A DNA stretch of 64,000 nucleotides from Chrysomallon squamiferum (lineage: Eukaryota; Animalia; Mollusca): contig CM022679.1 of NCBI GenBank assembly GCA_012295275.1, positions 13,454,001 through 13,518,000 on the forward strand. The letters are read 5' to 3'. The stretch's first letter is position 1. Each line of letters starts with the position of its first letter. The translations under genes and the position numbers were made by a program. A model generated the notes under the pieces. That model was not told where the DNA came from and searched no databases. It saw only the letters and a list, made by a program, of their open reading frames with translations. This document shows, in pieces, positions 1,018 through 64,000 of the stretch.

Positions 1018-1095
<78 letters not shown>

Positions 1096-27231: not shown

Positions 27232-27340
27232 ATGTTTAGAGTGGAACTTGTACGATGGTTTATTCTATCGGCATGGTGTCTTTCCAGCGTGCAAGCCGCG
27301 GCGATAGTTACAAAATCAGCATGGACATGGAATTCAACAG
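27232..27340 (+). CDS. Modular gene exon 1: signal peptide MFRVELVRWFILSAWCLSSVQA-AAIVTKSAWTWNST
   Basis: gccATG, hydrophobic core, VQA cleavage-like site; ends at a GC donor (ACAG|gcacgt). Confidence 0.7.
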
Positions 27341-30300
27341 GCACGTACAACTTACGTTTTTCTTCTTCTTCTTTTACTTTGTCTCGTCTTCGTCTTCGTC
27401 TTATAAAGGGAATCAATGTAAAACACAAAAGTTGTTTTTTCCCTTTAACTCTTAAAAACATACTTAGATGAGGAATGATAAAAAAAAAAAAAAATGCGTA
27501 CATAAACGTAAATACATACAAGTACATCCAGACATATGTACATAATACACGCACATATACATCTAAATGGTGATTATAAGTAGTAAAAAAAAACCCCCAA
27601 AACCAACACCTAATATTAAACTCTCTTTGTTAGGAAATCAAGTTCTCAATATTCAGAATAAAAAAAATGAAAACTTGAAGATTAATATGAAATACTATAA
27701 TATTACGAGCTTTGTGTTTCACTAAACCCATGAAAACAAACAAACAAACAAACAAAAACAAAAAAATAAAAAAATAAAAAAATAAAAAAAAAAAATTAAT
27801 AAATAAAAATTAAATAAATAAATGAAATACTTGCAGGCGATCAGTGCAGACCAATGATATGCTCCTGCTACATGAACGGGGTTTACTACGACGAGGGGGA
27901 CGAATGGAATGACCCCGAAGACCCGTGTATTAGATACAGATGTTTGCAGAATGGATTTTACAAACCCATTCAAACTGGTAACCTGTTATAATTTCATACC
28001 TCTTCATTTTCCTTTCTTTCTTTCCTTTTTTTTTTGTTTTGTTTGACACATTTTATTTTTTTTTTTTTCTTTTTTCTTTCTTTCTTTTATTTTAGTTAAT
28101 TAATTAAATAATTATTTTTGTATTTACTTATTTATTTACTTTATTTATTTACTTACTTTCTTTCTTACTTATTTATATACTTTCTGTATTAATTAATTAA
28201 TTCAATGATTTATTTATTATAATTATTTAATTAATTAATTTACCTTATTTATTAATTAATTACATTATTTATTTATTTTTTTATTATTTTTTAACATTTA
28301 TAATTGGTACTTAATTTAACGTTTCTAATTAAATATATGTTTTCAATGACAGGTTGCAATTTCAAAGGTGTGTGTAAGAAACACAATGAAACTTGGTCTG
28401 AGGGATGCTTTACTTATCACTGTGAGAAGAAAAAGGGAGACTGGAGATATACTCTGATACAACCAGGTAGCTTTTAAATAAAATACTCAAATTTACTATC
28501 ATTCCGTAACAGACACACACGGACGCTCGCACCTACACACATATACATGTACACATATGCGCGCACACACGCACGAACACACACATACATGCCTATAAAA
28601 GCACGCACACAGACACATTCCTACACATATATACATACAAACATACACACGCATATATACTAATGTATATATAGAAACACATATCTAGACATATATGTAC
28701 ACACACACACACACACATGCACACATACATATAGTACATGTACAAAAATGTGTATATAAATACAAATACATTTTGTTTTTGAGACTGATCTTTATATTCA
28801 CAAAATATAGTACATACACAAAAATGTATATATAAATACAAATACATTTTGTTTTTGAGACTGATCTTTATATTCACAAAATCGTATCAGCTAATCGTTA
28901 TTGTTGAACAGTAGAATCATTTTCTTCATTACAAAAACAAAAATGTTTCAGTTCTTTTATATAATATAAATAATAAGAAACAGAGACGTTTTCATTTCAC
29001 ATTAAAAATTCAAGACTAAATAAAAACGTGAAATAACATTATCTATTAAGTAAGAGAAATATAATTTTGTTCTAATACCTGTAATAAATACGAAATAAAA
29101 TAACTGAAACTGAAACTGATCTATATATATACTGAACACATGAAAAATGTTTCACTTTCCTTAACATTTTTGTTCAGTATATTTAAAATACACTGTGTTC
29201 CGCAGGTTGTGCAACTCGTAAAGGTGACTGTCTGCAGGTTGGGGAGAGGTACGTGGAGCTGTGTGACACGTACGAGTGTCAGATAGTTGGTTCCTGCTAT
29301 ACTTTAGTAAAAGTGAAATCAGGTAAGTGTGCGTAAACTGAGTTCTGCATGCGTCCATGTGCTTGTTATTTGTCAACCAATTAACTAGAATACGTCCAGG
29401 TGATCGTTATTTGTCAACCAATAATCTAAAATACGTTCCGCTTACGTCCAAGTGCTTGTTATTTGTCAACAAATAATCTAAAATACGTTCCGCATACGTT
29501 CAAGTGCTTGTTATTTTTCAACAAATAATCTAAAATACGTTCTGCATACATCCAAGTGCTTGTTATTTGTCAACAAATAATCTAAAATACGTTCCGCATA
29601 CGTCCAAGTGCTTGTTGTTTGTCAACAAATAATCTAAAATACGTTCCGCATACGTCCAAGTGTTTGTTATTTATCAACATACAATCTAAAATCCATCGAA
29701 GTGGTTGTTAATTATCAATAAATAATCTAAAACACGTTCTGCATACGTCCAAGTGCTTGTTATTTGTCAACAAATAATCTAAAATACGTTCCGCATACGT
29801 CCAAGTGCTTGTTATTTGTCAACAAATAATCTAAAATACGTTCTGCATACATCCAAGTGCTTGTTATTTGTCAACAAATAATCTAAAATACGTTCCGCAT
29901 ACGTCCAAGTGTTTGTTATTTATCAACATACAATCTAAAATCCATCGAAGTGGTTGTTAATTGTCAACAAATAATCCAAAACACGACCAAATGATTGTTA
30001 TTTATCAAGAAATAATCTAAAATACGTTCTCCATACATCTAAGTTCTTGTTATTTGTCAACAAATAACCTAAAATACGTCCAAGAGATTGTTATTTGTCA
30101 ACAAATTATCTAAAATACGTCTGCATAAAAGTACGTCAAAAAATACCTTCTGCATTGTCCAATTTTGTTATTTGTCAACATGCAATCTAAAATACCTTCT
30201 GCATACGTCCAAGTGTTTGTTATTTGTCAACATGCAATCTAAAATACCTTCTGCATACGTCCAAGTGTTTGTTATTTGTCAACATGCAATCTAAAATACC

Positions 30301-32573
30301 TTCTGCATACGTCCAAGTGTTTGTTATTTGTCAACATGCAATCTAAAATACCTTCTGCATACGTCCAAGTGTTTGTTATTTGTCAACATGCAATCTAAAA
30401 TACCTTCTGCATACGTCCAAGTGTTTGTTATTTGTCAACATGCAATCTAAAATACCTTCTGCATACGTCCAAGTGTTTGTTATTTGTCAACATGCAATCT
30501 AAAATACCTTCTGCATACGTCCAAGTGTTTGTTATTTGTCAACATGTCCAAGTGTTTGTTATTTGTCAACATGCAATCTAAAATACCTTCTGCATACGTC
30601 CAAGTGTTTGTTATTTGTCAACATCCAGTTTAAAATACCTTCTGCATACGTCCAAGTGTTTGTTATTAGTCAACATACAATCTAAAATACGTTCTGAATA
30701 CGTCCAAGTGTTTGTTATTAGTCAACATGCAATCTAAAATATGTTCTGAATACGTCCAAGTGTTTGTTATTAGTCAACATGCAATCTAAAATATGTTCTG
30801 AATACGTCCAAGTGCTTATTAGTTGCCAACAGATTATCTAAAATATATCGAAGTGCTTGTTAATTGTCAACAAATAATCTATAAACGTTCTGCACACGTC
30901 CAAGTTCTTGCTTTATTTGTTACGGTCACCAGCCTTTGGTAATAATAAAGTATGATGATAACATAACAAGCACGTGAGAATGCATGTCGGCTAAATATTC
31001 CGGTTGTTTCGTCACGTCATTTCGTTCAGAGATACTGCGTCTTTCCAGTGATATTTCTACAAACGAAATGATGTCACGAAAACATAGGGAATGTTAACCT
31101 ACGCGCATCTTCATAAAACTGTTATTGTGTAATCATAAAACAATACACAGATTTATAAATAAGTTCAATCTTAATACATTGAAAATATTCCGATAGATCA
31201 AATTATAATATGCATATACCTGTTGTATTCTGCATCAAAAGTAAATCAGATTTATTTGAAGTTTTTTTTTTTTTTTTTTTTTTTCAGTCTCTAGTGTTTT
31301 AAATATCTGAATTGTAAACTGTTGTCACTGTTTATGTATTTTAAGGGTGCAAAGCAAAGAACGACGTCTGCATGCCTGTTTACAGCTTCTGGCACGACGA
31401 ATGCGCTGTCTATCAGTGTAAACTGGACAAAGGAAAAAGCAAATCAATAATACAAACTCACTCTCATGGTAAAAAAAACCCCCAAAACAACAACAAAAAC
31501 AACAAACAAAAAAAAAACCCAAACGAAAATCAGTTTTAAAAATTACACCATCCATATTTTAGTAGCTATAATTATGTTTGTTTGTTAGTATATTTTAGTT
31601 TACTTGACATTCAGTATCAAATGTTATTTTAATTTTTTTTATTTTATTTATCATACTATACGGTACGATACCATATGATAAGAAACTACACGATAATATA
31701 CGATTCCTTGCTGTCTATTCTATGCTACTCTACACTGCATTACATGACACTAAACATTATTACACTATATTAAACTATACTGTGCTATGCTTCACTACAC
31801 TGTACTACACTATACTGTACTATGCTATGCTATACTATACTAAGCTATACTGTACTATACCATACTATACTGTATTACACTATACTATTCTTAGAAAAAA
31901 AAAATATTTTAATATTTATTTTTCTTCTTCTTTTTTTCTTTTATTATTTTCTTTTCTTTTATTTTTATTGAATTTTTCATTTATAATTTATTTATAATTA
32001 TTTTTAATGTTACGTCATGTAAATAGTATGAGATTTTTTTTTTTTTAATTGAAAACGTCACATCTTTTTTCTTTCTTTTCACGTCAGACGTCATGGTTTG
32101 GCCGAGAGGCGAGTACGCGCTTTTGGAAACTGTCCACGGCTGCCCTACGCTTTACGAGCAGTTCTGGAAAGAGGGATTCCACGAACACTGGGGCGATGGT
32201 CACAATGACTATTCTTACGAATACGATTTAAAGGGAAACAAAAGTGAATTAATGATGCAACATTACTTCTGCGTGCACGACGAGCTCAACGACACTGGTT
32301 TGATTCCTGTCTACCAGACGTACTGGGAAGAAGGAAAGTACTGCATTTTGGCCTACAATGGAACATGCCCTAAAGGTAACCTTTTTGTTGTTGTTGTTGT
32401 TGTTTTTTTTTTTTTTTTATTTTTGTTTCTTTGTTTGAACACAGGGCCCAGTAAAGCTATATATTTTGTAACTATACATGAACGCTTTGTCTGTTGTTCA
32501 TGGTACTTCAAACACTAGTATAAAATTGAACCTAGAAGTCAAAGCCATGGAAATTATTTGAAATGTGACGCTG

Positions 32574-32641
<68 letters not shown>

Positions 32642-34363
32642 AATAAATAAATAAATAAAAATTATAATATAAAAATTAACCTTTTGTATCTAACCCTGTT
32701 GACAGAAATAAAAATGTATACTTTATTAATAAATAATGTATTTGATTCTTGATTCTGTTCATGATTAATCAACTTGGTCTCTTTGTTGTTTGCTGCTATA
32801 GCCAATGTATTGTGACTGGTTTTTCAATATAATGTTTTCCCGCCTATGGGATGGTGCACCTATATAACCCCTGACTGCAAAGAGCAGTTAATGGAGTTTT
32901 CACTATCACATAATCATTACAGCTTTGACTGTAGTTTTATCTATTTATAGTTTAGTTTAGTTTTGTTTAGTTTAGTTCAGTTTATTTATTTATTATTTAT
33001 TTTAAAAAACAAAGCAAACAAACAAAAAAATATATGCGTATATGTATATATATATTTTATATATTGTGTACTTGTATCTCTATCTATATGAATGTATATA
33101 TTTATTTATTTATTATTAATGCTTTTTATTATTATTATTATTTTTAATAATAATTAAACACTTTGTAGAAGATATAGTAATATTTTGACCATAAGCCTTT
33201 ATTATTATTACTACTATATGTATTTGTTAGATTATTTATTTACTTATTTGTTTATTTTTTATTTGTTTATGTTATGAAAAATCTGTGAAGCCACGTGAAA
33301 TAATGTATAACCAAATGTTTTATTCAATAACAAACTGTATACATAACCATTATGCTTGTTAGACAAATCCACAATCGGAAACATATGGTGTAAATCAGTA
33401 TATGCTTGAAGTTCACGTCGATCACGTTTCTATAAAACTACATTCATATTTGGCAAGTCATTGTGTTAGCGTCTCAAAAAAAAACAAAAACAGAAAGATA
33501 GAAGAAAAAAGAACAGAAAGAAGGAATTTAAAGAAATGATGATGATCATGATAAATAAATAAATAAATTAATTAATAATAATAATAATCATATTAATATC
33601 TAAGTCTCATAATTCTAAATTGTTTTATTCGTTTCTTTAACCGTCAATTTTTAATTAATAATAATAATACAAAATATATATATAAAAAAATAGAAATTGG
33701 TGCATAGAATACAGTTTAAAAATATCTGGAAGCCGCCATGTTTTTTTTTTTTTTTTTTTTAAATAAAGATGTTCTTGCGCACAATGCGGACACATTTTCT
33801 TTCAGTGTTGCAGAGTTATCAATCCGCCATGTACGCGATTATCTGACCATTTTTTATTATAATTTATTTATTTATTTATTTTATTACTGTTGTTGTTATT
33901 ATAATTATTAATATTATAATATAAGTAACCCTTTAAAAGTATAGTAATATATATAAATAAAATAAACTTAAATATGTTTGACAAATAAGTGTTAATAATA
34001 AAACAATTAAAAAAGATATAAATAAATAAATAAGTAAATAAGTAAATAAATAATACAATATATAAAATTGAAGGTTTCCAAGAGGGGATGGTCATAATGG
34101 CGGATGAATCGAAAAATGAAACTAACACGACGTGGGGCACGCTACCTGATGGTGTTTTCAACAACCTTACGACAACTCTCTACTTCTGCTGTCGTTATGA
34201 TGGTGAAATCAAAAAACCAATAGTTCTGCCTTCCCGACATCCTTTTGCATTATTCATGGCGGCCAATGAAAGCAAATGCCAAGAAGTCAGAGGTAAAAAA
34301 AGATTATGTTTTTACTTGAAAATTCATATTTTATTTATTTGATTTGATTTGATTTGATCTGAT

Positions 34364-34394
<31 letters not shown>

Positions 34395-35974
34395 TTATTA
34401 TTATTATTTGATGACAATTTTGATTATATCTAATAACAGCAGCAACAACAACAACAACAACAACATCTATACAGTTTTATGGGCATACATTTATAATCGT
34501 ATAATAATTATACCTATTATTAGCTTCATTCTCATCCATTTTAATAAATATCAGCATCATTATCAGTAACATCCTTTTAATAATTGTTTTGTTTTTAATC
34601 ACTTCAAAAATAATTCAACTTTCAGGAATGACCTACAAAATAGAATTCTTCAGCCATGACGACCTCAACAACGGCACTTTGAGAGAGCTGCATGGTGCTC
34701 TGCCTTCCATCAAAACTGCAGACGACAACACACTTATATACGTCTGTTACTACTCGCCTGTTATGTGTGGTGTGTAGCCTCTCTCAAAGCTATTCATTTT
34801 TAATTTTTTAATGATATAACTATTTTGCAGTTTGTTACAAAAATTAATTTTAAGTTTAGGTATAATGACAGTATATCAAGAAACAAATAAAGAAGCATAA
34901 AAATAAATAAATAAATAAATAATTTTTTCAAACTATAAATGACATCAGATAAGCCTTTACTCCCATGCATTTTAAACTTACAGTCAGTTTATGAATATAT
35001 ATTAAGGAATTCAAATTATTTTTTATTTTTTATTTTTATTTTTATAAGGATGTGTCAATGGCGATGAAAATTTTGTAGCAGTCAATGACATCATTGAAAA
35101 GTCATGTGTCAAGTACCAGTGTTTTGAAATGAATTTTCGACCAGAGTTCATTATACTTGAAGGAGGTTAGTATAATTATTCAGTAGTTAAAGAATACACG
35201 CAAGCTTCAGAAGCAATAGTCCATAGGATCAATTCTACTCAGTCCTTCTATGGATCTATTTTCCATTTTAGCCAGTTCCCCATGACTGGTTTTTAAAAGG
35301 TAGTGGTTATGTATTTTCCAGTTTATGGGAGAATACGTAGCAAAACAATTCCTTGGCAAGCATAATGGTGGCAACAGGTTTTGTTTCTAATATCATCAGG
35401 AAAAAACCCATAATAAAATAAAATAAACTTGATTATGTTTGACACTTAATAACTGTTAATAATAAAATCATTTGAAAAAGATATAAATAAATAAATAAAT
35501 AAAACAATAAATAAAACAATAAATAAATAATAATAATAAAAATAATCATCATTCATTCATTCATTTGTAACTAACTGTTACTGCGCCGACAACGCCAACA
35601 AAGATGATGAAACGGGTAATTACACAAAAAAGATGATGATGATGATGATGATGATGATTATCAACAAAAACAATGCTAGAAACAAAAATTTATAATAATT
35701 ATAACAGGGCTGATTATGACGGTAGGGGTGATGGTGGTAAACCATTATGTTTTAAGCATATATTTCCAGGTTGTAAAATTGAGGGCAAAGATCAGTGTGT
35801 GGCTGAAAATGAAACATGGGTGGAGAAACATGGTGAGGCTTGCTTTACCAAGCAGTGTGTACGTCATACAGACAATACAACCGGTCACGTCTCATTTGTG
35901 GTGATCACCATCCTTAAAGGTAACTGTTTCTTTTCATTAGTGATGTTGCTGCCATTAGTACTTCAACTACAATG

Positions 35975-36008
<34 letters not shown>

Positions 36009-37577
36009 TTTCTATTAATATTATTACTGTGACTGCTATTACTATGATGTCGATGACAACTTATTCCTTTTACTGCTACTACCATTACTATTACAGCTAT
36101 GACAGTCACTGCTATTTCTACTATGATGGCTATGACTACTATTCCTATTGCTGCTAATATCATTATTACCACAACTACAATGAAGATGTCTACTATATTG
36201 TTATTCCTATTACTGCTACTATCATCATTACAATTTCCTGTTATTCCTGCTTTTGTTATTAATGATATTACTACTATTACTAGTATTATAATCACTTTTA
36301 CTACAACTATTGTTGTTGTTGTTTTGTTCTTTTACTTCATACTGCTATTACTACTATTGCTAATTCTACTGCAGCTACTACTGCTAATGTTACTACTAAC
36401 ACTATTACTGCTATTACTGCTACTGCTAGTAATAATATGCTTTTTTTATTTTATTCAGAATGTCGCGATGGAGAATACTGTCGACCTTTGACCTACACAA
36501 AAACTCATGGTTGTTACAGTGCTCAGTGTCAGGAGAGCAACATCACTGGAGAAATAGCATTTGAGGTGACAGAGGCAGGTGTGTGTATAACAGTATTATC
36601 ATACTACATACATACACACACACCATTGGTCTCCCGAAGGGATGGAGGGAATCAGCATAACTGGTGCAAGTTAAACGAAGGGATGGTACAGAATATTTTT
36701 AGGGTACAAGAACTTTGAACAAAGTTCAAATTACTTGTATGTCAAAAATACTCCTATAAATAATTGCATCAAATGCATTAACAATTAACTAGTTTATTTC
36801 ATTTGCAATTAAATAAAATCAAAATGTCTGTTTAATTTATTATACAAAATGAAGTTCATTAAATAAATGTGTGGCAGATATTGCTGTTGTTACCAATGAA
36901 TGGCAGACAAACTTGTTACAGCATGTAGCAAGACCTCTACATACATACATACATACATACATAAAAACCCCACCATTTCTTTGAAACAACAACATTAGCT
37001 TACAGTTACATAATGTGTCAATAAAAATGAAAGGCACCTTTTGTGTTGATTCATTTTTTGTACTGACATTTAAAAGTCCAATATTTGCAACTGATTGTTA
37101 CTTAATATTGCGTAACTGTGAAACTTCAACAACAAGTAATCTTTTCGCCAAACATCTATATTTTCTCATCTTGACAGTGCAGTCAAAATAAAATAGATTG
37201 CTACCGACACCCATGAAATGTTCTTTTGAAAATTATTATTAGTTCTATGGTATGTTTATCATATTTAATACTAGGAGTTAGAGGGTTAAGTACTAAATGC
37301 TTTACTATGCTAAACATGGTGTAACAAAAACAAATAATAATAATAACAATAAAAAAACACACAATAACAACAGCAATGATAACAAATAACAAAGCGGTTC
37401 AAACATTTATTATTATTAGCAATAAAAAACTTGAACTACATAACAGTGGAAGAATTATCACAAACAAACTTCAAGGATTAAAATTATATTTAAAATGATA
37501 AAACAGTATGGATTTAACATTCATTTTACACTAACATCCAACCATTTACATGTATTTTGTATTTTTATTTTTATTTA

Positions 37578-37620
<43 letters not shown>

Positions 37621-46600: not shown

Positions 46601-46889
46601 AAAATCAATTAAACTGAAAATAATTACGCAGCAGACTATTTGTGTTGTGTAGTTGGCACTATAAATAGTTTTTGGGAATTTCCAAACTAATTATAACTTT
46701 TTATTTTTATATTTTTAATATTATTATTATTTTCTTTTGATGTTAATTATTATTATTATTGCAATTATTTATTTATTTATATTACTTTTTAAATTGTGTG
46801 TGTGATCACAAATTACATAAAATAAAGACATCACAAATCATTCAAGAAGCTTTTTTTTCTCTTTTTTTTTTTTTTTACCATTTCTCTAA

Positions 46890-46921
<32 letters not shown>

Positions 46922-49382: not shown

Positions 49383-49432
<50 letters not shown>

Positions 49433-50490: not shown

Positions 50491-50533
<43 letters not shown>

Positions 50534-54919: not shown

Positions 54920-54950
<31 letters not shown>

Positions 54951-55565
54951 TGTTGTTGTTCTCATTTAAAAAAATTTAATTTGAAATATAATGATGTTTA
55001 TATAGTTCAGTTTTAATACTGATAAAATATTCTTCATAGATATACATACAAAAACACATCATACACAGAGAAACAAACATACAAAATTACATTAAAAAAG
55101 ATTCGTACAAATTGCACACACAAACAAGACACACATTTCATACTCTCACCTGCACACATGCATACACATGCACACACATCTAAAACCATCGAACATCTAT
55201 TCATAAATGTATTCTTCCGCAGATCTGTAAACACATGGCGTATACATGCATATTATATCCTGGAAATACACGTGCATACTTCAGTGAATTCTTTTATCTG
55301 TCTATGTATTGATGTCAAAATAATCAGTTATTTTATTTATTCTGAAGGTTGTAAATTCAATGACAAATGTGTGAACACTGGTGGCACGTACAAATACAAC
55401 TGTGTCACCTACTTATGTAACAAGACAGGAAGTGCATGCGGTATAAAAGTAACTGCAGTTGGTAAGTTTACTCTATAAAAACGTCGTGTTATTAAAATGC
55501 CAGTGTTGGGGAAAAAAACCTTTCTTATTAGTATTACTATTAGTATCACTATTATTATTATTATT

Positions 55566-55605
<40 letters not shown>

Positions 55606-55782
55606 TTTTTTTTTTAAATTAATCATTTTATTTTTTTATTTTTTTATTTATTTATTTATTATTTTAATTTGTTTTTATTATTTACTTTATATTTTTAATT
55701 CATTATATTATTCGTTTAAATGATCATCATCATCACCATCATCATTATCATCATTATTATCATTATTATTATTATTATTATT

Positions 55783-55813
<31 letters not shown>

Positions 55814-57150
55814 CTTATTTGCTGATCCACTGTTTTCAATAGCATAAAACCTCCCTTTCTGGAATGCTATATTTGCTTCTGTTATTAAGTAAGTTTTAAA
55901 GTTTATCTGTGGCAGTATGAACAAACATATTAAATATCTTTGGTAAGCATACAAATAAATATGCAGTAGTTAAACCTTTTCCAGATGCCGTTATTTTTAA
56001 ACAAAGAAAAATACATTAATCCTTAACAAACTGAGGTTAATGCTGCATTATGGTGATTATAACTCAGTCTCTTGACGATGTTTTGGGTATAAATTGGTAA
56101 GACAAAATTCAGAAAAAATAAGAGCCTTCAGCTGATACACACAAGATAATCATTTGAAAATATACAAAATATATTTACATGTGTTTGTTCGTACAGCTAT
56201 GAGTTCTGATTAATGTTTTCTATAAATAAAGGTTTATATTAATACAACCACAGACATAAACACATACATAATATACATTCATAATTATGTAACTACATAT
56301 ACACTTATACATGCGTACATATATATACATACTTGCATGTACACTTATACATGCACACATATGTATATTTTATATACACATACATACACACATACATATT
56401 TACCCATGCAAAAATGCACACATACACACAGACAGGCATGTTTACTTGAAAATATAATGACAGTGAATGTACTTTGTACTGTTCTCTTGTATTTAGGCTG
56501 TAAAAACCCAAATACAGGTAAATGTGTGGCTGAAAATGCTACAATGGACTTTGGGTGCAACACGTATAAATGTGTCATACAGAAAACAAAAAAAGGCTAC
56601 AGACGAACATCACGTGTAGTTTCATCAGGTAATTTTGTCTGTAATTTCAAACATAGTTTAAAATACATGTATACATATTAATTCAGAGCATACTATTGCG
56701 TAGCATGGGCAGGGCCCCGGGATGTTGCCAAGGACACAAAATTCTGGAAGAGACTCCAGGAGGGATAAATTCCACAGGTTGGGAAGTACAATATTTGCCT
56801 TGCCCCATGGGCTGGCAACCCACGCTACACTGCTAAGTGCACATCTCAGGCACTATCATTTAAGTGGTTTCTTAAAGGCTGTCTGCCTATGGGGAGATGC
56901 ATGTAAATGATCACTTGTTGCTAGTAATAATAACACAGTAGCTCAGATTGTGGCACTGGGATTGCCGTTTCATTAACTCTACGATTCTTAAACATGATCT
57001 GTAATGCACATAACTGTAAATGAACTATGTGTTAAGTGTATGGTTTAATCAAATGTTTTTTGTTTTTTTTTCCTTTTAAAAACATATTTAAAATATTACT
57101 GTTCTCTCTTTTTCTCTCTCTCTTGCTATATATCTCTCTAACTTCGAACT

Positions 57151-57190
<40 letters not shown>

Positions 57191-58039
57191 ACATATGCAA
57201 TATGTTGTAATTTATTTTCATAATGATCAAAATGAATGATACGTTAATTAACAACATATTATATACATTGGAAAATAACTTCATGCTGATGGTAATATTA
57301 ATTTCTCGTTTTTCTCTATTTCAGGTTGCACTTACAAGAAGAAGTGTTACAAACAAAACGAAACCTTGCAGTTTGGCTGCCAAACGTACATATGTAGTAC
57401 ATTCAAAAAGAATGGAAAAATATATGTTGGTTTCAAATTTAGTTCCTACGGTGAGATTACTACGAACTGAAATTACTACGCATGCTAGAAGCAGTAAAAA
57501 TCAATCTGTTTTTGCAGTTTAATTACCCTACAGTAAGATACAACTTCTCGCTGTAGTCATTGTTAGTGTGATGTCCTGATGTGAGTAAGGACTGAATTTC
57601 AGAATGAAAGATGCACACATTTACATTCATACGTACCTACATGTACATACATAGAAACATGCATACACAGATACAGGAATATATGCGTATATAAATACAT
57701 GCATACATACATTCACACATAAATACATACAGACATACATACATACATAAAATGCATACACATACACATAAACATATGTACAATCACATATACACACATA
57801 TCTCCACAGAAACATACAAGAACAAAAAAGTAGCACTGAAATGGACTTTATTGTTTTTGTTTTTTTAAGGTTGTAAGTACAAAGGTGTTTGTTACAAAGC
57901 TAATGAGACGTTTCATGACGGATGCAGGAAAAAAGCCTGTCGTGTTTATGTAAAAGGAAAGCGGATCAGTTATAAAATTGTTTCACTTAGTAAGTATCTT
58001 TACAATCAAATTAGCTTCTTTTCTTTTTCTCACTGTCTT

Positions 58040-58076
<37 letters not shown>

Positions 58077-58097
58077 TAATATTATATATAATATTAT

Positions 58098-58135
<38 letters not shown>

Positions 58136-60139
58136 ACTAGTAGTACTAGTAGTAGTAGTAGCAGCAGCAGCAGCATTAGTAGTTATTTATTTACTTTGTT
58201 TGTTTTAAATGTTATTACTATTATTATTTTTTTTTTTTTTTTTAAATTAATTATTTCCTTTACATATAGTATATACAAATTAAACAATACCTTTGGTGAT
58301 AAGAAAAAAAATAGTATAAATATATTCTGCATACTTCCCAGTTACATTTTTGCAGTCCAGTGTTAATTTGTAAAGAAGTGTATCAAGCAAAGAATACAGT
58401 TTTAAAAAATAGGAAAATTTGAAATTTGTCTCATGTTGTTTTTACTGAAGAGAGGTTGCCCAAAACAGTAAGTTAATAATAACTTGAAAGTATACATAAC
58501 ATTTTTTTTTACTTTTTAAAAAAATAACCATTTTTAGATCTTTATTTGTACATCTCGTACACTGTAAATCAAAAAGAAATTGTTGTTGGGAAGCTAGTGT
58601 AGCTCTATAGGAAAACACTAAATCCATAAGTGAGAGATTGTGGGGTCAGTTGTTCTTTATCCACTGATATATAGTATATTTTCAATTTCATCAATTTCCC
58701 ATAGGTAGATACATAACTCTTGTAAAGGATGTAGTACTGAAAAAACGTAACATAAGAGATCTAGTGATATAGATATTTTTTCCTTTGAATAAATTAATGT
58801 TTCTATAACAATCCTTCAGAGTAAGATTATTTCTGTAATGCATATTAAATATTTTATAGCATAACTGGAAAGTGAATTTTTGTTTTAAACAACAGTACAC
58901 TTTTTAGGTAATGGGTATAATGATATCAAATGATACCCTTCTTCTAAAATCTGTTTCTTTTATTTTCATGTTTGTAGATTAATTAACCCAACTCATCTAT
59001 ACGGTTATTCCAGTTTAGACACAAAATTCACATATATACGTTTTTACATTTTACATTAGCATGCTCAGTATATGGAATTCCACTTTATAAACTAAATTCA
59101 TGCATAAGCATATATTATCAAATATCAAATTAGCATGACTCACAGTACGGTAATGCAAATTTTTAAATCAAACTCATTTATACATGATCAAAGTAACAAA
59201 TTGATACTTTTGTCCATCATCAAAGTAGCATTTTTGGTTTTGTGTATCAGTTTTTGATTAATTATATTACCTTGCAGACTGCATGTATAATGGACACTGT
59301 TACGAGATGAACCAGTCAATTCAAATTAGATGTACTAACTACACCTGTTTGGAAAGACATGATAACTCATGTCAGCGTGTTGGTATGACCAGAACAAGTA
59401 TAGGTGTGTATTACGTGTGTGTTTGCTGTCATTATAATCATCATTTACATTTCTGTCATTTTACATAGTTGTTTTGTTGTATTTATTATTTACTTTATTA
59501 TTATTATTATTATTATTTTTTTTTAAATTTTTAAATCATTTTATCTATTTATTATATTTTATTTCATATATGTATATATCAGTTAATACTTTTGTCTCGT
59601 TCTGTCTAATAAACTTGATATAAATTATCTGACAAAACTACCTGCTTTAAGCGTGTTTATCTGCTGACTTGCTTTCTCACTGTTTCAGCCTGTACTCATC
59701 CCACTGAAGACAAATGTGTGCCTGCTAACGCCACTGTGGATAGTCACTGTGCCACATACAAATGCCGTGTTAAAAAAACATCCAAAGGATACATGCGCAT
59801 GCTAAATGCAGTATCTGCAGGTATGTTCACAGGTAGTTTTAATGACAGATGCACGTGTGAAGAACATTATATCTTTCTGATGTAACACGAATAAAATATT
59901 GAAAATTAATTTAAAAAAAAAATTCAGTATCATTTAAAATAAAGTGCACAAGAAATGAGGTTTGATAATATATTAATTTCATTCGTTTTTTTTTTTTTTT
60001 TCATTAACAAAACAGTAATGTTTTCTGTAGTCTTGAAAAAATACACATCAGACAGCTATGTACAAAATGAATATTGTTTTATTGTTGTACTTTGTTGTTA
60101 ATGTCCATTGGTTGCCTAAAACAAGAAATTAGTTGCATG

Positions 60140-60194
<55 letters not shown>

Positions 60195-60937
60195 AACTTA
60201 AAATACTTTACATTCATACCAACATAGGTGTTTTTTAATTTCTACATGGATAGGAAAAACTAAAACTCTTTTTTTTTTTTTATTTATTTATTTTTTTTTT
60301 TTTTTTTTTAACTTACAGGATGTATCTACAAAGGAAAATGTTACAAACTAAATGAGACATTTGAGAGGAACTGTATCATTTTCAAGTGTTATCAGAAACG
60401 GCTTGCATCTGGAAGAATACAATCTAGTTTTAAAATTGATTCCTATGGTAAGTTCCCATAAGCACACCTGTTACATGTATGTTACATCAAAGTGTTAAAA
60501 TCTCCATTTGACTCACTATTTAATTCACTGTATTCTAGAACGAGAGTGCTTTTTGGTGTCTGTCTAAGATTAAGCTTAATTCCTTAAAGAACAGTTATTT
60601 TAAAATTTATTATTGTTAAACTTCAGAATAATGAGATAAAATTACGTATAAATTACAATAAATTTAATAAATCTCTGATATTGTTAATGTTTTATTGTTG
60701 GAATTATAACTGCTGTTCCTCTTATTATTATTCCTTCTTCTATTACCACTGTTATCATAATGATCATGTTATAATTGTTTGTTGCTGATGCCGTTTTTAT
60801 TGTTGTTATTGTTATTGTAATTATTATTACTACTATTACTATGATTGTGATAATTATTTTTGTTGCTGTCGTTGTGGTTGTAATTGTTGTTGTTGTTGTC
60901 AATGTTCTTGCTCCTATTATCATTACGATCATATTAC

Positions 60938-60979
<42 letters not shown>

Positions 60980-61237
60980 AGGGTGTAAACGCAATGGACA
61001 CTGTCGGAAGGCAAATGAGACATTTCTGGAAGGATGCTCAAAGAAAGCGTGTCATGTGTATCGTAAAGGAAATGGCATCATGTACAAAATTGTTTCTCTT
61101 AGTAAGACTCCTCAAAACACATTTTATAAAATTACACAACTTTCACATTTGCTTGCTGATGGGAATTTTGGGGGATAGGTTGTTTTTTTTCAATTTTAAT
61201 TTTTTTTAATTTTTTTGTTTGTTTGTTTGTTTGGTTT

Positions 61238-61268
<31 letters not shown>

Positions 61269-64000
61269 TCGTAATCATTAATAATAATAAAATAATACTG
61301 TTTGAAACCACCATTTTATGTTTACCCCACCATTAACTGGATTCGTACATGATGGAGCGATGTTGACATTATGCTGTATTTGTTTAAAAGAAACTTACCT
61401 ATGTGATGATATCATGACTCTCACAAAAAGGCAATCTTTTGTTATTATACTGCATTATTAACACTGGATAGATAAAAAAAAAATTAAAAATTCTAATTAA
61501 ACAAAACTTGGGAATATTCAGAATATATTTAACCTATTTCTTCATATTATTGAGATTTTACAGTAATTTATTCTTTTTATTTATTATTTATCAATATACA
61601 AAATCCCCTTCCCCCCAAAAAAAACTAACAAAAGGAAAGAGCGACTCTGCTTATCTCTCTATAAGCTTACTTTTTATTTGCAAAATATATTTGTGCCTAT
61701 CAAATAAATATATAACTATAAATACAATGCTTTAGATAATGCTGCATTAATAATTCAACATTAACCAAATTTTATAAGGAATTTTTTTTTGCATGATGTA
61801 ACCATTGTTGTTCCCATTTGCAGACTGCAAGTACAATGGGCATTGTTATGACATAAACCAGACGGTTGAATTCGGATGTGCTAACTACACCTGTATGGAA
61901 AGACATGATAACTCATGTCAGCGTGTTGGTATGATCAGAACAAGTGTAGGTGTGTATTACATAGCAAAAATATATGTATTTTATTTTATATTACTACCAT
62001 CTTCATATTATCATGCAGTTATCAAAGTCACCATAATCATCATTATTGTTAGCAGCAGTAGTAGTAGCAGTAATAGTAGTTTTAATTCTATATTTTATAT
62101 TTTAAAATTGTATATCTTTCAGTATTGTGTCTTTATGTGTGCATATGTGTGTATGTATGTATGTACATGGTTGTGTGTGTATCACGTTAATTAGTACTTT
62201 TTTCTCTTCTCTTAAAGCAGTTTACAAACACACAGTTATCTTACTTATTCATTGTGGGGTTGTTTTGGATTGTTTTTTTTTTTTTTTTTGTTAATCTGTA
62301 CTGCTATGGACTTTTAACTAGTTCAGTAACAGGCTTTACAAGATAGTATTGAAACAATTATAAAATCTTTCGTAATATACACGTACATTTTATCATTGTT
62401 TCAGGCTGTCCACATATGTCAAAGGACCAATGTGTGCCTGCTGGCAGCACTGTGGAAATCAATTGTGCCGTATACAAATGTCGAGTTACAAAAACATCCA
62501 CAACGTACACTCGTGGGCTAAGAGTAATAACTGCAGGTACAGCTTTCGTTTTGTTCTTTTATTTTAACTACACTTAGGCAAATGAGACAAACATCTGATT
62601 TTGTTTTTCTTACACAAAGATTTTATTTAAAAATATGTTAATGTTAATTCTGACAGAAACGATATCCACTGAATGAATTCATTTATGTCTATGGTTACCA
62701 CTTGGCAATCAAGTGTTACTGCCTCATTTCAAAAAAACTAGTTACAGCCATGATAATGATAAATAAGGTGAATGACAAGTACTGTACTGTAAGCTGTAGT
62801 CATCTGGTTATATCTGGTTATAATATGAATTTTTGAGATTTCCACAATCAATTTGCATCTCTGCCTCATTTGACTTTTTCTCTTTTTTAACAATCAGTAT
62901 CTCATAAGAGAAACAATGGAAGCTGTTGATATTGTTCTTTCAGGTTCATGCAAGGATGGATATTAAAGATTTATTGTTAACAGTATCACATGCAGAAATG
63001 ACAGCTAGTTTCCGTTCTAAAAATCATCATTATATAACAATATATTTCACAGCATCGAATTTTAGAAACATGGTCAGGTACATATACACATACACATTCA
63101 TTCATTTAGATATGTGTTGCCAGAAAGTTACTTTTTACCACATTTTTATTTAATATGCAATATTAAGAATATTTAATACATGTAAAGTTTTGAAAACATA
63201 AAACTGTTTTCTTTATTACAGGATGTCGCACCCATGGCAAATGTTTGAAAGCAAATGCAACACAGCAGTTTGGCTGTAATGTATATAAATGTGTTGAGAA
63301 GCAATTATCACCAGGAAGATTACAGAGTCGAACAGAAATCATTTCCTATGGTAAGTCAGTGACATCTTCAAATATTGGTTGGTGAACATCTGTGACTACA
63401 TTGTCTGTTCTTGAATAGTAGATAAACTGATTATTTTCGTCTTAAAGTCAAGGTTGCATCACAGATTAGCTCGTACTCTTTTCACATTATGGTCAAGGTT
63501 GTCTCATTAACACCCATTGCCTATTTAGTTAACACATTCTCTGTCTCACAGTTTATCATAAAAATAATGCATCGTTAAGTGTAACAAAATGTATTTCTGT
63601 TTTATCAGGCTATTTCTACTTCTAGCAGTACTTTGCTACTTCTTCTTTTACAATAGTAATGACTACTGGCTAACAGTACCTCTGCTTCTAATACTAAAAC
63701 TACTTCAGTTACTACTACAACTACCCTTGCTACTACAAGAATGTTTCTACTAATACTGCCATGTTTAGTCATTATCATCATTGTCATCAGGAGCATCTTC
63801 ATTATTGTTGTTGTTGTTGTTGTTGTTGTTACTGTTGTTATTATTATTAAGTATATTATTATTCTGTGTTTTAGGATGCAAAAGTGATGAAGGAAAATGT
63901 TATAAGCCTGATTCTAAAGAAAAATATAAGCGTAATGTACTGTACGAAGGTACCAACTATACTTGTGATTGTCAATGTAAACGCAATGGAAAATATTCAA
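27232..64000 (+). CDS. Large secreted modular protein: signal peptide, 4 Cys-rich VWC/FnI-like modules, internal ApeC domain, at least 19 further Cys-rich modules; 3' end outside the window
   Basis: 27 exons, all internal ones multiples of 3 nt with phase-1 junctions and no stops; module consensus GC-x5/6-C-x10-C-x4-C; about 1210 codons inside the window. Single-transcript status is inferred from phase compatibility. Confidence 0.8.
27837..27977 (+). CDS. Exon 2: VWC-like module (DQCRPMICSCYMNGVYYDEGDEWNDPEDPCIRYRCLQNG..)
   Basis: ttgcag|...CTG|gtaacc; C..NG..Y..G..W....PC..C motif. Confidence 0.88.
28353..28466 (+). CDS. Exon 3: Cys module (GCNFKGVCKKHNETWSEGCFTYHCEK..)
   Basis: acag|...CCAG|gtagct, phase 1-1. 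Confidence 0.88.
29206..29322 (+). CDS. Exon 4: Cys module with fifth Cys (GCATRKGDCLQVGERYVELCDTYECQIVGSCY..)
   Basis: gcag|...TCAG|gtaagt, phase 1-1. Confidence 0.88.
29360..30910. repeat. Minisatellite, 52 bp unit, roughly 30 copies, in intron 4 of the modular gene
   Basis: Unit gtttgttatttgtcaacatgcaatctaaaataccttctgcatacgtccaagt; near-identical run at 30165-30620. Confidence 0.95.
31346..31468 (+). CDS. Exon 5: Cys module (GCKAKNDVCMPVYSFWHDECAVYQCKL..)
   Basis: ttaag|...CATG|gtaaaa, phase 1-1. Confidence 0.87.
32088..32375 (+). CDS. Exon 6: ApeC domain part 1 (WPRGEYALL..GCP..FC..YWEEGKYCI..GTCPKG)
   Basis: WP.G.Y.L...GCP and W..G.YCI....CP.GF are apextrin C-terminal domain motifs. 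Confidence 0.92.
34074..34292 (+). CDS. Exon 7: ApeC domain part 2 (GFQEG..WGTLPDGVF..LYFCCRYDG..PIVLPSRHPF.LF..KCQEVRG)
   Basis: G.LPDG.....FCCR.DG....PI.LP...PF.L...CQ.V.G ApeC motif. Confidence 0.92.
34626..34769 (+). CDS. Exon 8: ApeC domain part 3 (MTYKIEFFSHDD..GALP..LIYVCYY)
   Basis: ttcag|...TGTG|gtgtgt; terminal CYY of ApeC. Confidence 0.88.
35049..35165 (+). CDS. Exon 9: Cys module (GCVNGDENFVAVNDIIEKSCVKYQCFE..)
   Basis: taag|...GGAG|gttagt, phase 1-1. Confidence 0.85.
35200..35460 (+). mobile_element. Degenerate SINE-like remnant (Meta-SINE core-like); related pieces near 32820-32930 and 56860-56970
   Basis: Loose similarity among the three segments and to the recalled core ggtatgt..cctgtctgtgggatggtgcatataaaagatcccttg..gtggc..c.ggttt. 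Confidence 0.4.
35770..35919 (+). CDS. Exon 10: Cys module (GCKIEGKDQCVAENETW..ACFTKQCV..)
   Basis: ccag|...AAAG|gtaact, phase 1-1. Confidence 0.88.
36459..36578 (+). CDS. Exon 11: Cys module (ECRDGEYCRPLTYTKTHGCYSAQCQE..)
   Basis: ttcag|...GCAG|gtgtgt, phase 1-1. Confidence 0.87.
37915..38230 (-). mobile_element. Frameshifted Mutator-like (MULE) transposase fragment in intron 11
   Basis: Across frames: LWNIHCTT.. / CEGWNNMFFNLVGYYHP / LATVGTIIQQDVVANPP..LYVQLQE, resembling the MULE C-terminal WN.H....RTNN..EGWN..F..LV...HP motif. Confidence 0.65.
38529..38645 (+). CDS. Exon 12: Cys module with fifth Cys (ACSDGYGHCIEVGKTIKKGCMELKCIREISKCAL..)
   Basis: atcag|...GGAG|gtgggt, phase 1-1. Confidence 0.87.
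40098..40513 (-). CDS. TNFR-like gene: cytoplasmic tail exon
   Basis: ttctag| acceptor in frame with ORF 40098-40505; TAA stop. Confidence 0.82.
40098..42796 (-). CDS. Single-CRD TNF-receptor-like membrane protein (Grindelwald-like), about 265 aa, nested antisense in intron 12 of the modular gene
   Basis: Exons 42634-42807, 42256-42282, 41861-42052, 40098-40513 join in frame (phase 1): 8-Cys ectodomain, stalk, TM helix, RRK stop-transfer, long polar cytoplasmic tail. Confidence 0.8.
41861..42052 (-). CDS. TNFR-like gene: transmembrane exon (IPLIITACLLAACAILLALAIVYICL-ERRK)
   Basis: tttcag|...GAAA|gtgagt; long hydrophobic run then basic residues. Confidence 0.85.
42256..42282 (-). CDS. TNFR-like gene: 27-nt stalk micro-exon (DFLVNQTIK)
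   Basis: tttcag|...AAAG|gtagat; same-length exon retained in the duplicate at 49681-49707. Confidence 0.65.
42634..42807 (-). CDS. TNFR-like gene: Cys-rich ectodomain exon (MTSGKTFRCGHDICNKIEQYCVPKDNRCYYCKDICHSFNSTNVNFPQQCIHYCI)
   Basis: tttcag|ACGTA...ATAG|gtaggt; C-x4-C-x6-C-x6-C-x2-C-x3-C-x13-C-x3-C spacing. Confidence 0.85.
43010..46600. repeat. Local tandem duplication (about 43010-44950 vs 44960-46600) with an extra internal copy at 43725-44130
   Basis: Long near-identical blocks, e.g. 43180-43710 vs 45285-45815 and 44110-44940 vs 45795-46590. Confidence 0.9.
43577..46683 (-). promoter_or_regulatory. Repeated NF-kB-site plus TATA-like cassettes upstream of the TNFR-like gene
   Basis: Consensus kB 10-mers at 43591-43600 (GGGAAATTCC on -) and 46674-46683 (GGGAATTTCC), near matches at 44731, 45694, 46401, each beside tataaatag/tataaaatag. 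Confidence 0.5.
48275..50414 (-). pseudogene. Pseudogene duplicate of the TNFR-like gene
   Basis: CRD exon 50243-50414 is 172 nt (two 1-nt deletions vs 174), TM exon deleted near 49640, GGA>TGA stop at 48560-48562 in last exon (48275-48699), upstream cassette region missing. Confidence 0.85.
51001..51191. repeat. Two interleaved inverted repeats (A-B-A'-B')
   Basis: 51001-51045 pairs with 51102-51146; 51044-51088 pairs with 51149-51191. Confidence 0.88.
52740..52865 (+). CDS. Exon 13: Cys module (GCSFNGKCYGEGAYWSYSCSKFTCI..)
   Basis: tacag|...AAAG|gtaaga, phase 1-1. Confidence 0.88.
52851..53556. repeat. Minisatellite, 37 bp unit, about 19 copies, spanning the exon 13 splice donor
   Basis: Unit gactgttagcaaaggtaagagagttgatagaatttca. 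Confidence 0.95.
53690..54024. repeat. Degenerate tttcacaatgtaaatgttat-type repeat running into the exon 14 acceptor
   Basis: About 8-10 diverged units visible. Confidence 0.7.
54025..54138 (+). CDS. Exon 14: Cys module (GCLDYNGKCRKEGDKVTNNCVTYECI..)
   Basis: cacag|...GGAG|gtaaaa, phase 1-1. Confidence 0.88.
54726..54851 (+). CDS. Exon 15: Cys module (GCLWHGKCYDANSEWKERCSTYNCT..)
   Basis: tttag|...CTGG|gtaatc, phase 1-1. Confidence 0.88.
55348..55461 (+). CDS. Exon 16: Cys module with fifth Cys (GCKFNDKCVNTGGTYKYNCVTYLCNKTGSACG..)
   Basis: tgaag|...GTTG|gtaagt, phase 1-1. Confidence 0.88.
56497..56628 (+). CDS. Exon 17: Cys module type A (GCKNPNTGKCVAENATMDFGCNTYKCV..)
   Basis: tttag|...TCAG|gtaatt, 132 nt. 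Confidence 0.88.
57325..57450 (+). CDS. Exon 18: Cys module type B (GCTYKKKCYKQNETLQFGCQTYICS..SY)
   Basis: ttcag|...TACG|gtgaga, 126 nt. Confidence 0.88.
57870..57989 (+). CDS. Exon 19: Cys module type C (GCKYKGVCYKANETFHDGCRKKACR..YKIVSL)
   Basis: ttaag|...CTTA|gtaagt, 120 nt. Confidence 0.88.
59278..59403 (+). CDS. Exon 20: Cys module type D with fifth Cys (CMYNGHCYEMNQSIQIRCTNYTCLERHDNSCQRVG..)
   Basis: ttgcag|...ATAG|gtgtgt, 126 nt. Confidence 0.88.
59689..59820 (+). CDS. Exon 21: Cys module type A (ACTHPTEDKCVPANATVDSHCATYKCR..)
   Basis: ttcag|...GCAG|gtatgt, 132 nt. Confidence 0.88.
60319..60447 (+). CDS. Exon 22: Cys module type B (GCIYKGKCYKLNETFERNCIIFKCY..SY)
   Basis: tacag|...TATG|gtaagt, 129 nt. 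Confidence 0.88.
60982..61101 (+). CDS. Exon 23: Cys module type C (GCKRNGHCRKANETFLEGCSKKACH..YKIVSL)
   Basis: taaag|...CTTA|gtaaga, 120 nt. Confidence 0.87.
61824..61949 (+). CDS. Exon 24: Cys module type D with fifth Cys (CKYNGHCYDINQTVEFGCANYTCMERHDNSCQRVG..)
   Basis: ttgcag|...GTAG|gtgtgt, 126 nt. Confidence 0.88.
62405..62536 (+). CDS. Exon 25: Cys module type A (GCPHMSKDQCVPAGSTVEINCAVYKCR..)
   Basis: ttcag|...GCAG|gtacag, 132 nt. Confidence 0.88.
63222..63350 (+). CDS. Exon 26: Cys module type B (GCRTHGKCLKANATQQFGCNVYKCV..SY)
   Basis: tacag|...TATG|gtaagt, 129 nt. Confidence 0.88.
63875..64000 (+). CDS. Exon 27 (cut by window edge): GCKSDEGKCYKPDSKEKYKRNVLYEGTNYTCDCQCKRNGKYS
   Basis: tttag| acceptor, open to the window end. 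Confidence 0.8.

What the first reader, a model, noticed from the sequence alone, without database searches (positions are those of the whole stretch)
27232..64000. Giant secreted protein with an internal ApeC domain threaded into a chain of 23+ one-exon Cys modules
Seen: signal peptide, 4 modules, a complete 8-Cys ApeC domain (exons 6-8), then at least 19 more ~40 aa GC-x5/6-C-x10-C-x4-C modules, each on its own symmetric phase-1 exon. Known: ApeC is usually C-terminal (apextrins, amphioxus ALPs) and is linked to microbe binding and extracellular matrix. Inference: I do not recognise this architecture; it could be an elongated disulfide-stabilised matrix, mucus or adhesive fibre carrying a recognition domain, and any module could be skipped in frame to vary length. 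The ORF track misses it almost entirely.
Basis: partly seen in the sequence, partly recalled or inferred. Interest (0 to 1): 0.82.

Follow-up and report, generated by a model that had tools for sequence, protein, structure and literature searches.

The report
Mollusc fibronectin-like rod carrying ApeC
This is a real 27-exon snail gene, shared with other snails and with clams, for a likely secreted protein in which a sugar-binding-type ApeC domain sits inside a chain of 23 small cysteine modules predicted to fold like fibronectin fingers and likely locked to each other into a rod; its close relative was already catalogued in a 2022 survey, but the papers found here report no test of its function.

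Summary
The 27 exons splice into a 1,212-aa stop-free frame: signal-like N-terminus, 4 modules, ApeC (exons 6-8), 19 modules. RNA contigs of two runs join exons 7-8-9-10, so ApeC is internal. The same architecture occurs in 13 named gastropod and bivalve species. The closest relative, Gigantopelta XP_041364439.1, is collinear across exons 1-16 and appears beside the 'Group 7' label in Li et al. 2022's tree of mollusc ApeC proteins. The family is therefore catalogued, though the text I read does not describe its modules or function.

Corrections: exon 27 matches the family's C-terminal cap, so the protein is probably about 1,220 aa, not open-ended. All three DXED motifs are degenerate.

New here: the module is predicted to have a fibronectin-type-I/VWC-like fold. 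Cysteine spacing follows a strict start-(middle)n-cap grammar, implying a disulfide from each module to the next, with ApeC clamped into the chain by a ninth cysteine. Patella annotations show an isoform skipping three modules. The same module also occurs alone and behind VWA domains.

Best reading: a secreted, disulfide-locked rod that anchors a glycan-binding ApeC head in mucus or matrix. Function is untested.

The parts
27232..27340 (+). Exon 1: signal-peptide-like N-terminus; inferred GC donor
   Evidence: 58% identical to ortholog residues 1-36; junction not seen in RNA
27837..27977 (+). Exon 2: start-type module (lacks Cys2), preceded by a C-x4-C pair
   Evidence: weak SVWC/VWC hits; 78% to ortholog
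28353..28466 (+). Exon 3: 4-Cys module
   Evidence: weak Fn1_2 hit E 0.0044
29206..29322 (+). Exon 4: module with an extra loop Cys
   Evidence: 84% to ortholog
31346..31468 (+). Exon 5: last module before ApeC
32088..32375 (+). Exon 6: ApeC, profile positions 1-91
   Evidence: E 1.3e-14
34074..34292 (+). Exon 7: ApeC, profile positions 93-164
   Evidence: E 4.4e-17; its end is joined to exon 8 in RNA
34626..34769 (+). Exon 8: ApeC, profile positions 168-208, plus a ninth Cys
   Evidence: spliced to exon 9 in runs X1 and X3
35049..35165 (+). Exon 9: start-type module (lacks Cys2)
35770..35919 (+). Exon 10: module
   Evidence: its start follows exon 9 in RNA loose ends
36459..36578 (+). Exon 11: module
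   Evidence: 79%
38529..38645 (+). Exon 12: module with an extra loop Cys; followed by a 14,094-nt intron
   Evidence: 82%, ortholog residues 549-586
52740..52865 (+). Exon 13: module
   Evidence: 66%, ortholog residues 588-628, directly after exon 12's match
54025..54138 (+). Exon 14: module
54726..54851 (+). Exon 15: module
55348..55461 (+). Exon 16: module with an extra loop Cys
56497..56628 (+). Exon 17: module, first of a duplicated 4-exon block; basic
57325..57450 (+). Exon 18: module
57870..57989 (+). Exon 19: module (69% to exon 23)
59278..59403 (+). Exon 20: module with an extra loop Cys (71% to exon 24)
59689..59820 (+). Exon 21: module (51% to exon 17, 53% to exon 25)
60319..60447 (+). 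Exon 22: module (45% to exons 18 and 26)
   Evidence: weak Fn1_2 hit
60982..61101 (+). Exon 23: module
61824..61949 (+). Exon 24: module with an extra loop Cys
62405..62536 (+). Exon 25: module
63222..63350 (+). Exon 26: module
63875..64000 (+). Exon 27 (cut by the window end): probable C-terminal cap module
   Evidence: Cys gaps 6, 21, 1, 1 resemble the family's cap pattern of about 6, 18-25, 1-3, 8-16; 24% match to the Haliotis last module

Best explanation
The gene encodes a likely secreted ~1,220-residue mollusc protein in which an ApeC domain sits inside a chain of 23 one-exon modules predicted to fold like fibronectin type I fingers; the modules are likely disulfide-locked to their neighbours into a rod that would anchor in mucus or extracellular matrix and present ApeC as a glycan-capturing head, most likely for bacterial peptidoglycan. 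Shown: the gene structure, the ApeC identity, the exon 7-8-9-10 splicing and the conservation across gastropods and bivalves. Predicted: the all-beta FnI/VWC-like module fold. Inferred: Cys1-Cys4 within a module; Cys3 of module n to Cys2 of module n+1; the ninth ApeC Cys bonding to Cys3 of exon 5, so that ApeC hangs off the rod; spare loop Cys (exons 4, 12, 16, 20, 24) cross-linking chains; the basic tail (net +54) gripping polyanionic mucins or matrix. Untested: tissue, ligand and polymerisation. Rod length is tunable by exon skipping and exon-block duplication.
For: Single gene. Same architecture in 13 named species and an unnamed 2,919-nt Logan contig encoding 843 aa. Fold: AlphaFold2 of a stand-alone six-module homolog has pLDDT 90.9 and is all beta. 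Its top structural matches are FnI/VWC domains (Z 5.5 over 81 residues at 6.5 A; single modules at rmsd 1.3-1.4 A over 35-39 residues, Z 4.0-4.4). The full-length Haliotis model gives the same top hits (Z 5.7). ESM features point to Fn1_2/VWC (score 0.85, a lead only). Staggered bond: the first module lacks Cys2 in 26 of 35 stand-alone proteins and 11 of 12 ApeC-family rows; the first module after ApeC lacks Cys2 in 10 of 11; caps carry 5 Cys; both internal modules lacking Cys3 are directly followed by one lacking Cys2 (2 of 2). In 389 adjacent pairs Cys3(n) and Cys2(n+1) never disagree, while Cys3(n) and Cys2(n) disagree 4 times. Cys1 and Cys4 are lost together in Patella module 2. The ninth Cys is in 9 of 9 family ApeCs and 0 of 2 canonical ones. 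Skipping: both Patella species have an isoform lacking residues 610-734, three whole modules. Ligand precedent: ApeC proteins of amphioxus, oyster and snail bind peptidoglycan and agglutinate bacteria, including BgACP1 and bfACP5, which have all three DXED motifs mutated (PMC9585378; PMC8361754).
Against: There are no expression, localisation or binding data for any family member (six identifiers found in no paper). 0 of 3 DXED motifs are intact, and the ApeC carries 8 N-glycosylation sequons. Peptidoglycan binding is shown only for short-form ACPs. Conservation of the whole architecture across two classes looks more like a structural protein than a fast-evolving immune family (inference). Fold Z-scores of 4-5.7 are within the range the tool calls common. 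The full-length model has pTM 0.34, so the rod shape is not shown, and disulfides could not be read from the models. Covariation rests on few independent loss events. Spare loop Cys are absent in Mactra, Mya and P0005, and the tail is not basic in Patella (net -3).
Confidence: 0.45

Rival explanations
1. Purely structural matrix protein (basement membrane, apical matrix, egg, shell or foot matrix). The FnI-like array binds collagen-type or extended peptides, or self-assembles, and ApeC binds host glycans or other matrix proteins rather than microbes.
For: Degenerate DXED motifs. The best structural match is fibronectin 8-9FnI bound to a collagen peptide. The same module sits behind VWA domains in scallop and pearl oyster. 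Sea-urchin apextrin is an apical-matrix protein (PMC8361754). Architecture is conserved across classes.
Against: ApeC domains lacking all DXED motifs still bind peptidoglycan. A shared fold shows no function. This rival shares the rod anatomy with the best explanation and differs only in the ligand.
Confidence: 0.3
2. Secreted regulator or cofactor: the VWC/FnI-like modules bind growth factors (as chordin-type VWC domains do, recalled) or a matrix protease, as nematode MIG-18 does for the ADAMTS protease MIG-17.
For: The nearest named module family is the MIG-18-like Fn1_2. MIG-18 is a secreted basement-membrane cofactor of MIG-17 (PMC4856095 passages). VWC domains of CCN3 and collagen IIA are among the fold matches.
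Against: Fn1_2 scores stay below Pfam's cut-off (25.8 of 27 bits for the ortholog). Module number varies freely between species and isoforms, and the tail modules are poorly conserved, which fits a spacer better than specific binding sites.
Confidence: 0.12
3. Two genes mis-joined: exons 1-12 and exons 13-27 are separate genes on either side of the 14-kb gap.
For: The 14,094-nt intron holds opposite-strand genes. Module-only proteins exist, and in Dreissena a module-only model (P0011) matches the family's post-ApeC half. The 12-13 junction letters were not seen in RNA.
Against: Exons 12 and 13 match ortholog residues 549-586 and 588-628 back to back. Exon 12 is not a cap module, and exon 13 is not a start module. 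The RNA contig runs 628 nt past exon 9, which equals exons 10-14 (627 nt) plus 1 (length only).
Confidence: 0.04

Closest known systems
Group 7 mollusc ApeC-containing proteins of Li et al. 2022 (PMC9585378), including Gigantopelta aegis XP_041364439.1 (LOC121379853)
   Same: The window's ApeC is sister to XP_041364439.1 (75% identity, 100/99 support), and exons 1-16 are collinear with it at 50-84%. That accession is listed next to the 'Group 7' label with Pecten, Mizuhopecten and Crassostrea sequences in Supplementary Figure 1. The text says group 7 spans gastropods and bivalves.
   Different: The text and supplement I read class it only among 'medium-sized architectures' and do not describe the module chain or a function; Figure 1B was not visible. 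Tail exons 17-26 are differently duplicated in the window, and the window keeps a cap-like last exon that the Gigantopelta model lacks.
Short-form ACPs (amphioxus ACP1/2/3/5, oyster CgACP1, snail BgACP1) and apextrins (MACPF + ApeC)
   Same: Secreted-type protein with an 8-Cys ApeC domain.
   Different: ApeC is internal, has a ninth Cys and no intact DXED motif. There is no MACPF domain, and 23 Cys modules flank it.
Fibronectin type I modules, Pfam Fn1_2 (MIG-18-like, PF23003) and the VWC N-terminal subdomain
   Same: A ~40-residue all-beta module with matching predicted fold and weak Fn1_2/VWC profile hits. One module per phase-1 exon.
   Different: Scores are below Pfam cut-offs. Internal modules have C-x5/8-C-x10/14-C-x4-C spacing, implying one bond within and one between modules, whereas FnI has two bonds within the module and VWC has ten Cys (both recalled). 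Only the cap resembles the canonical C-x-C pattern.
Uncharacterised mollusc module-only and VWA-plus-module proteins (e.g. Haliotis XP_046355015.2, Lottia LOTGIDRAFT_230689, Pinctada KAK3086679.1, Ylistrum XP_060063141.1)
   Same: Same module and the same start-(middle)n-cap Cys grammar.
   Different: No ApeC; they carry a VWA head or none. All are database predictions without a described function.

Membership tests
ApeC domain (PF16977) | Profile match above the curated cut-off over the whole ~200-aa domain | tested here: met
   Exon 6 scores 54.9 bits and exon 7 63.1 (cut-off 26.5); exon 8 gives 13.2 on positions 168-208. The ortholog scores 152.9 bits over 1-208.
ApeC domain (PF16977) | Eight conserved cysteines | tested here: met
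   All 8 align with the two canonical ApeCs of P0097; a ninth follows.
ApeC domain (PF16977) | Three relatively conserved DXED motifs | tested here: not met
   0 of 3 in the window, and no D-x-E-D match in any of the 9 family rows. The papers report accepted ACPs with all three mutated, so this does not exclude membership.
ApeC lectins | Binds peptidoglycan and agglutinates bacteria | not testable with these tools
   Needs a binding assay.
Group 7 mollusc ACPs (Li et al. 2022) | ApeC clusters with the group's listed members | tested here: met
   Sister to XP_041364439.1 at 100/99 in an 11-row tree. That accession's placement in Group 7 is read from the text order of a PDF figure; the bivalve members listed there were not fetched.
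Group 7 mollusc ACPs (Li et al. 2022) | Domain architecture drawn in Figure 1B | not testable with these tools
   Figures are not held.
Apextrin | MACPF/perforin domain before ApeC | tested here: not met
   No MACPF hit in exons 2-27 or in the orthologs.
Short-form ACP | C-terminal ApeC and no other domains | tested here: not met
   RNA splices exon 8 to exon 9, and depth stops at the donor.
Fn1_2 / FnI modules | Pfam gathering score | tested here: not met
   Best single exons score 17.6 and 16.1 bits, and the ortholog 25.8 against a cut-off of 27. Two stand-alone hits of the profile search pass (P0020 28.9, P0069 27.4).
Fn1_2 / FnI modules | FnI finger fold | tested here: inconclusive
   FnI/VWC entries fill the top ranks for both models, with rmsd 1.3-1.5 A over 35-39 residues, but Z is only 4-5.7. 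The models are of homologs, not of the window's own chain.
VWC domain (PF00093) | Ten-Cys, two-subdomain unit (recalled) | tested here: not met
   Modules have 3-5 Cys; VWC hits are weak (E 0.09-0.25) and cover profile positions 1-34 of 57 at most.

The most novel reading that the evidence does not exclude
Molluscs have their own fibronectin-like fibre family: an unnamed FnI-type module in which each unit is disulfide-locked to the next, giving stiff rods whose length is set by exon skipping and duplication. The rods carry interchangeable heads (ApeC clamped in as a side-arm, VWA, or none) and cross-link through periodic spare cysteines into microbe-trapping mucus or matrix networks.
Probability: 0.2. 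Interest if true: 0.72.

Novelty: new member of a known kind. Interest (0 to 1): 0.42.

Why it matters
ApeC function has been tested mainly in short secreted forms. This conserved gastropod-bivalve family offers a clean test of what ApeC does inside a long multidomain protein. The module is a widespread mollusc repeat that Pfam mostly misses, and its cysteine grammar makes a sharp, cheap prediction (a bond from each module to the next, ApeC clamped by a ninth cysteine). If confirmed, it defines a new rod-building unit relevant to mollusc mucus, matrix and bioadhesive work. The gene itself is an ortholog of a catalogued protein, so the surprise is moderate.

Tried and rejected
No whole genome is held, so the end of exon 27, copy number and synteny were not checked.

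RNA was laid only on 34560-35230. Junctions 1-2 (GC donor) to 6-7 and 10-11 onward were not seen as letters. Run X2 laid nothing, which is no evidence of absence.

A short isoform ending two codons after the exon 8 donor is possible on paper, but RNA depth stops at the donor in X1 and X3.

Homolog search with exon 6 found nothing. The search with the full alignment returned only 3 proteins.

Foldseek of the full-length model gave only meaningless hits, TM 0.09 or less, including clostridial toxin repeats and LRP2. Foldseek of the short model had TM 0.29 or less, with fibronectin fragments on top. No solved structure matches by sequence. ESM Atlas gave no usable hit for the ortholog's module region.

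The homodimer prediction for Haliotis residues 516-675 returned 'no answer' (score 0.02) and is not used either way.

The HMM-based covariation count clips imperfect modules and so has little power. It used 71 of 97 proteins, after dropping 7 unrelated or very short ones and 19 near-duplicates. One 'm' parse in Haliotis falls inside ApeC and was discarded.

Literature: searches found no paper describing this module chain. Li et al. 2021 (PMID 33186688), which lists more than twenty ApeC architectures, is not held and could describe it. The limpet mucus ApeC protein (P-vulgata_14) has a different architecture; that paper's supplements were listed but not read. Earlier scan notes had nothing relevant.

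Full report
Observation. The window is AT-rich animal DNA. An independent scan for AG/GT-flanked open phase-1 exons recovered the module exons; the signal and ApeC exons and exon 27 were placed by reading the sequence. Twenty-seven exons from 27232 to the window end join into 1,212 codons without a stop, with 108 Cys and 30 N-glycosylation sequons. Exons 2-26 are phase 1-1, exon 27 is cut by the window end, and exon 1 needs a GC donor. A strict module pattern occurs 20 times on the + strand, 0 times on the - strand and 0 times in each of 20 shuffles. Exons 6-8 cover the Pfam ApeC profile end to end.

One gene. RNA contigs from runs X1 and X3 splice exon 8 exactly to exon 9, with loose ends reading the end of exon 7 and the start of exon 10. 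Depth stops at the exon 8 donor, so the possible read-through stop is not seen. The X1 contig continues 628 nt past exon 9; exons 10-14 sum to 627 nt, which fits splicing across the 14-kb intron, though only by length. Exon 7 found Gigantopelta aegis XP_041364439.1 (76%, 1,214 aa) and Patella proteins. Exons 1-16 map in order on its residues 1-746, including both questioned junctions, and none of 74 tblastn hits lies outside the 27 exons. The window is thus from a gastropod close to Gigantopelta (Peltospiridae). Exons 17-26 arose by duplication of four-exon blocks (exons 19/23 69%, 20/24 71%, 17/21/25 33-53%).

A family, already catalogued. A profile of 22 modules found 74 proteins among 1.84 billion representatives. 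Pfam scans and cluster look-ups of 20 of them, plus the first 3 hits, show the same modules-ApeC-modules layout in seven gastropods (Gigantopelta, two Patella, four Haliotis) and six bivalves (two Saccostrea, Ylistrum, Mactra, and partial models in Mya and Sinanodonta). An unnamed 2,919-nt contig encodes it without introns. The same module occurs without ApeC in roughly 275-aa secreted-type proteins and behind VWA domains. In Li et al. 2022 (PMC9585378; I read parts 1 and 3 of 6 of the text, found passages and the whole supplement, but not the figures), XP_041364439.1 stands beside the 'Group 7' label with scallop and oyster sequences. The text counts group 7 among those shared by gastropods and bivalves and among medium-sized architectures, with no account of the repeat or its function. 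The window's ApeC is sister to that protein (100/99). Nine paper searches found no description of the module chain; Li et al. 2021 could not be read.

The module. AlphaFold2 of a stand-alone homolog (Haliotis, 32 sequences) gave pLDDT 90.9 and pTM 0.69, all beta, with strands running across module borders. The full-length Haliotis ortholog gave pLDDT 69.5 and pTM 0.34 with the same strand pattern. For both models, the top matches among 48,161 solved chains are fibronectin FnI pairs, factor XII and tPA fingers and VWC domains, at Z 4-5.7, with single modules at rmsd 1.3-1.5 A over 35-39 residues. These Z values are modest, but weak Pfam Fn1_2/VWC hits and ESM features agree. I read the unit as an FnI/VWC-type finger outside current Pfam cut-offs.

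Cysteine grammar. Chains parse as start-(middle)n-cap. The start module lacks Cys2 (26 of 35 stand-alone proteins, several exceptions looking like partial models; 11 of 12 ApeC-family rows). The cap has five Cys. A six-module protein therefore has 3+16+5 = 24 Cys, all pairable only if Cys3 bonds outside its own module. Both internal modules that lost Cys3 are followed by one that lost Cys2 (P0008, P0017), and Patella module 2 loses Cys1 and Cys4 together. I infer Cys1-Cys4 within modules and Cys3(n)-Cys2(n+1) between them. The chain restarts with a start-type module after ApeC (10 of 11), and every family ApeC has a ninth Cys at its end (9 of 9, against 0 of 2 canonical domains). That Cys would take the otherwise free Cys3 of exon 5 and clamp ApeC into the rod as a side lobe. 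Exon 27 has cap-like spacing, so the protein probably ends just beyond the window, at about 1,220 aa. Spare loop Cys sit in exons 4, 12, 16, 20 and 24; they could cross-link chains, but some bivalve orthologs have none. None of these bonds was observed directly.

How it most likely works. The N-terminus is hydrophobic, and no transmembrane-strength segment occurs in the window protein or 7 orthologs. ApeC is acidic (net -15) and the tail basic (net +54; +19 to +31 in four orthologs, near neutral in three). Patella vulgata and P. caerulea annotations both hold an isoform without three whole modules, supporting length tuning. Short ApeC proteins bind peptidoglycan and agglutinate bacteria in mucus, even with all DXED motifs mutated (PMC9585378; PMC8361754 passages), and the window's ApeC has none intact. 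My best reading (0.45) is a secreted, disulfide-locked rod that anchors in mucus or matrix and presents ApeC to catch microbes. A purely structural role is the main rival (0.3), then a protease or growth-factor cofactor like MIG-18 (0.12; PMC4856095 passages), then a split gene (0.04). The gene structure and family assignment are about 0.95 certain; the function is not tested. PMC7333891 and PMC12373286 were read as passages only.

Verdict. The added value is the module's fold assignment and its staggered-disulfide grammar. Interest 0.42.

Noticed in passing
window 42807-40098, minus strand, inside intron 12: Nested three-exon gene: a 256-aa open frame with no signal peptide, one Cys-rich domain (42796-42634), a transmembrane exon (42052-41861) and a cytoplasmic tail (40513-40098). 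Layout resembles Grindelwald/TNF-receptor-type proteins (recalled); the only database hint is Grindelwald 6zsy at E 0.52, with no Pfam hit.
   Followed up: partly
window 50416-48278, minus strand: Tandem duplicate of that nested gene (about 74-89% DNA identity). It is broken: frameshifted Cys-rich exon, transmembrane exon apparently missing, premature stop in the tail exon.
   Followed up: partly
window 11291-6987, minus strand: ECSIT gene (ECSIT_N E 3.5e-35; ECSIT_C E 2.7e-19 and 7e-18).
   Followed up: no
window 718-2102, plus strand: 3' exons of a folliculin-interacting protein (FNIP_C) gene.
   Followed up: no
window 15022-14807, minus strand: hAT transposase dimerisation-domain fragment (E 8.3e-5).
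   Followed up: no
window 29334-30920 and 52851-53564: Intronic tandem arrays of about 52-nt and 37-nt units. The second starts inside the end of exon 13 and repeats its donor site, giving several possible alternative donors.
   Followed up: no
window 34702: G reads as T in X1, X3 and X4 (Ala to Ser in ApeC; the Gigantopelta ortholog has Ser): an allele or an assembly error.
   Followed up: no
proteins P0007, P0008, P0029; P0036, P0053, P0046, P0048: The same module forms chains of 30 or more units behind a VWA domain in scallop and pearl oyster, and tandem three-module start-middle-cap units in other proteins: an unnamed, widespread mollusc repeat family.
   Followed up: partly
window 37844-38420, minus strand: GC-richer stretch with partial open frames and no Pfam hit; possibly an old repeat. 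Unexplained.
   Followed up: partly
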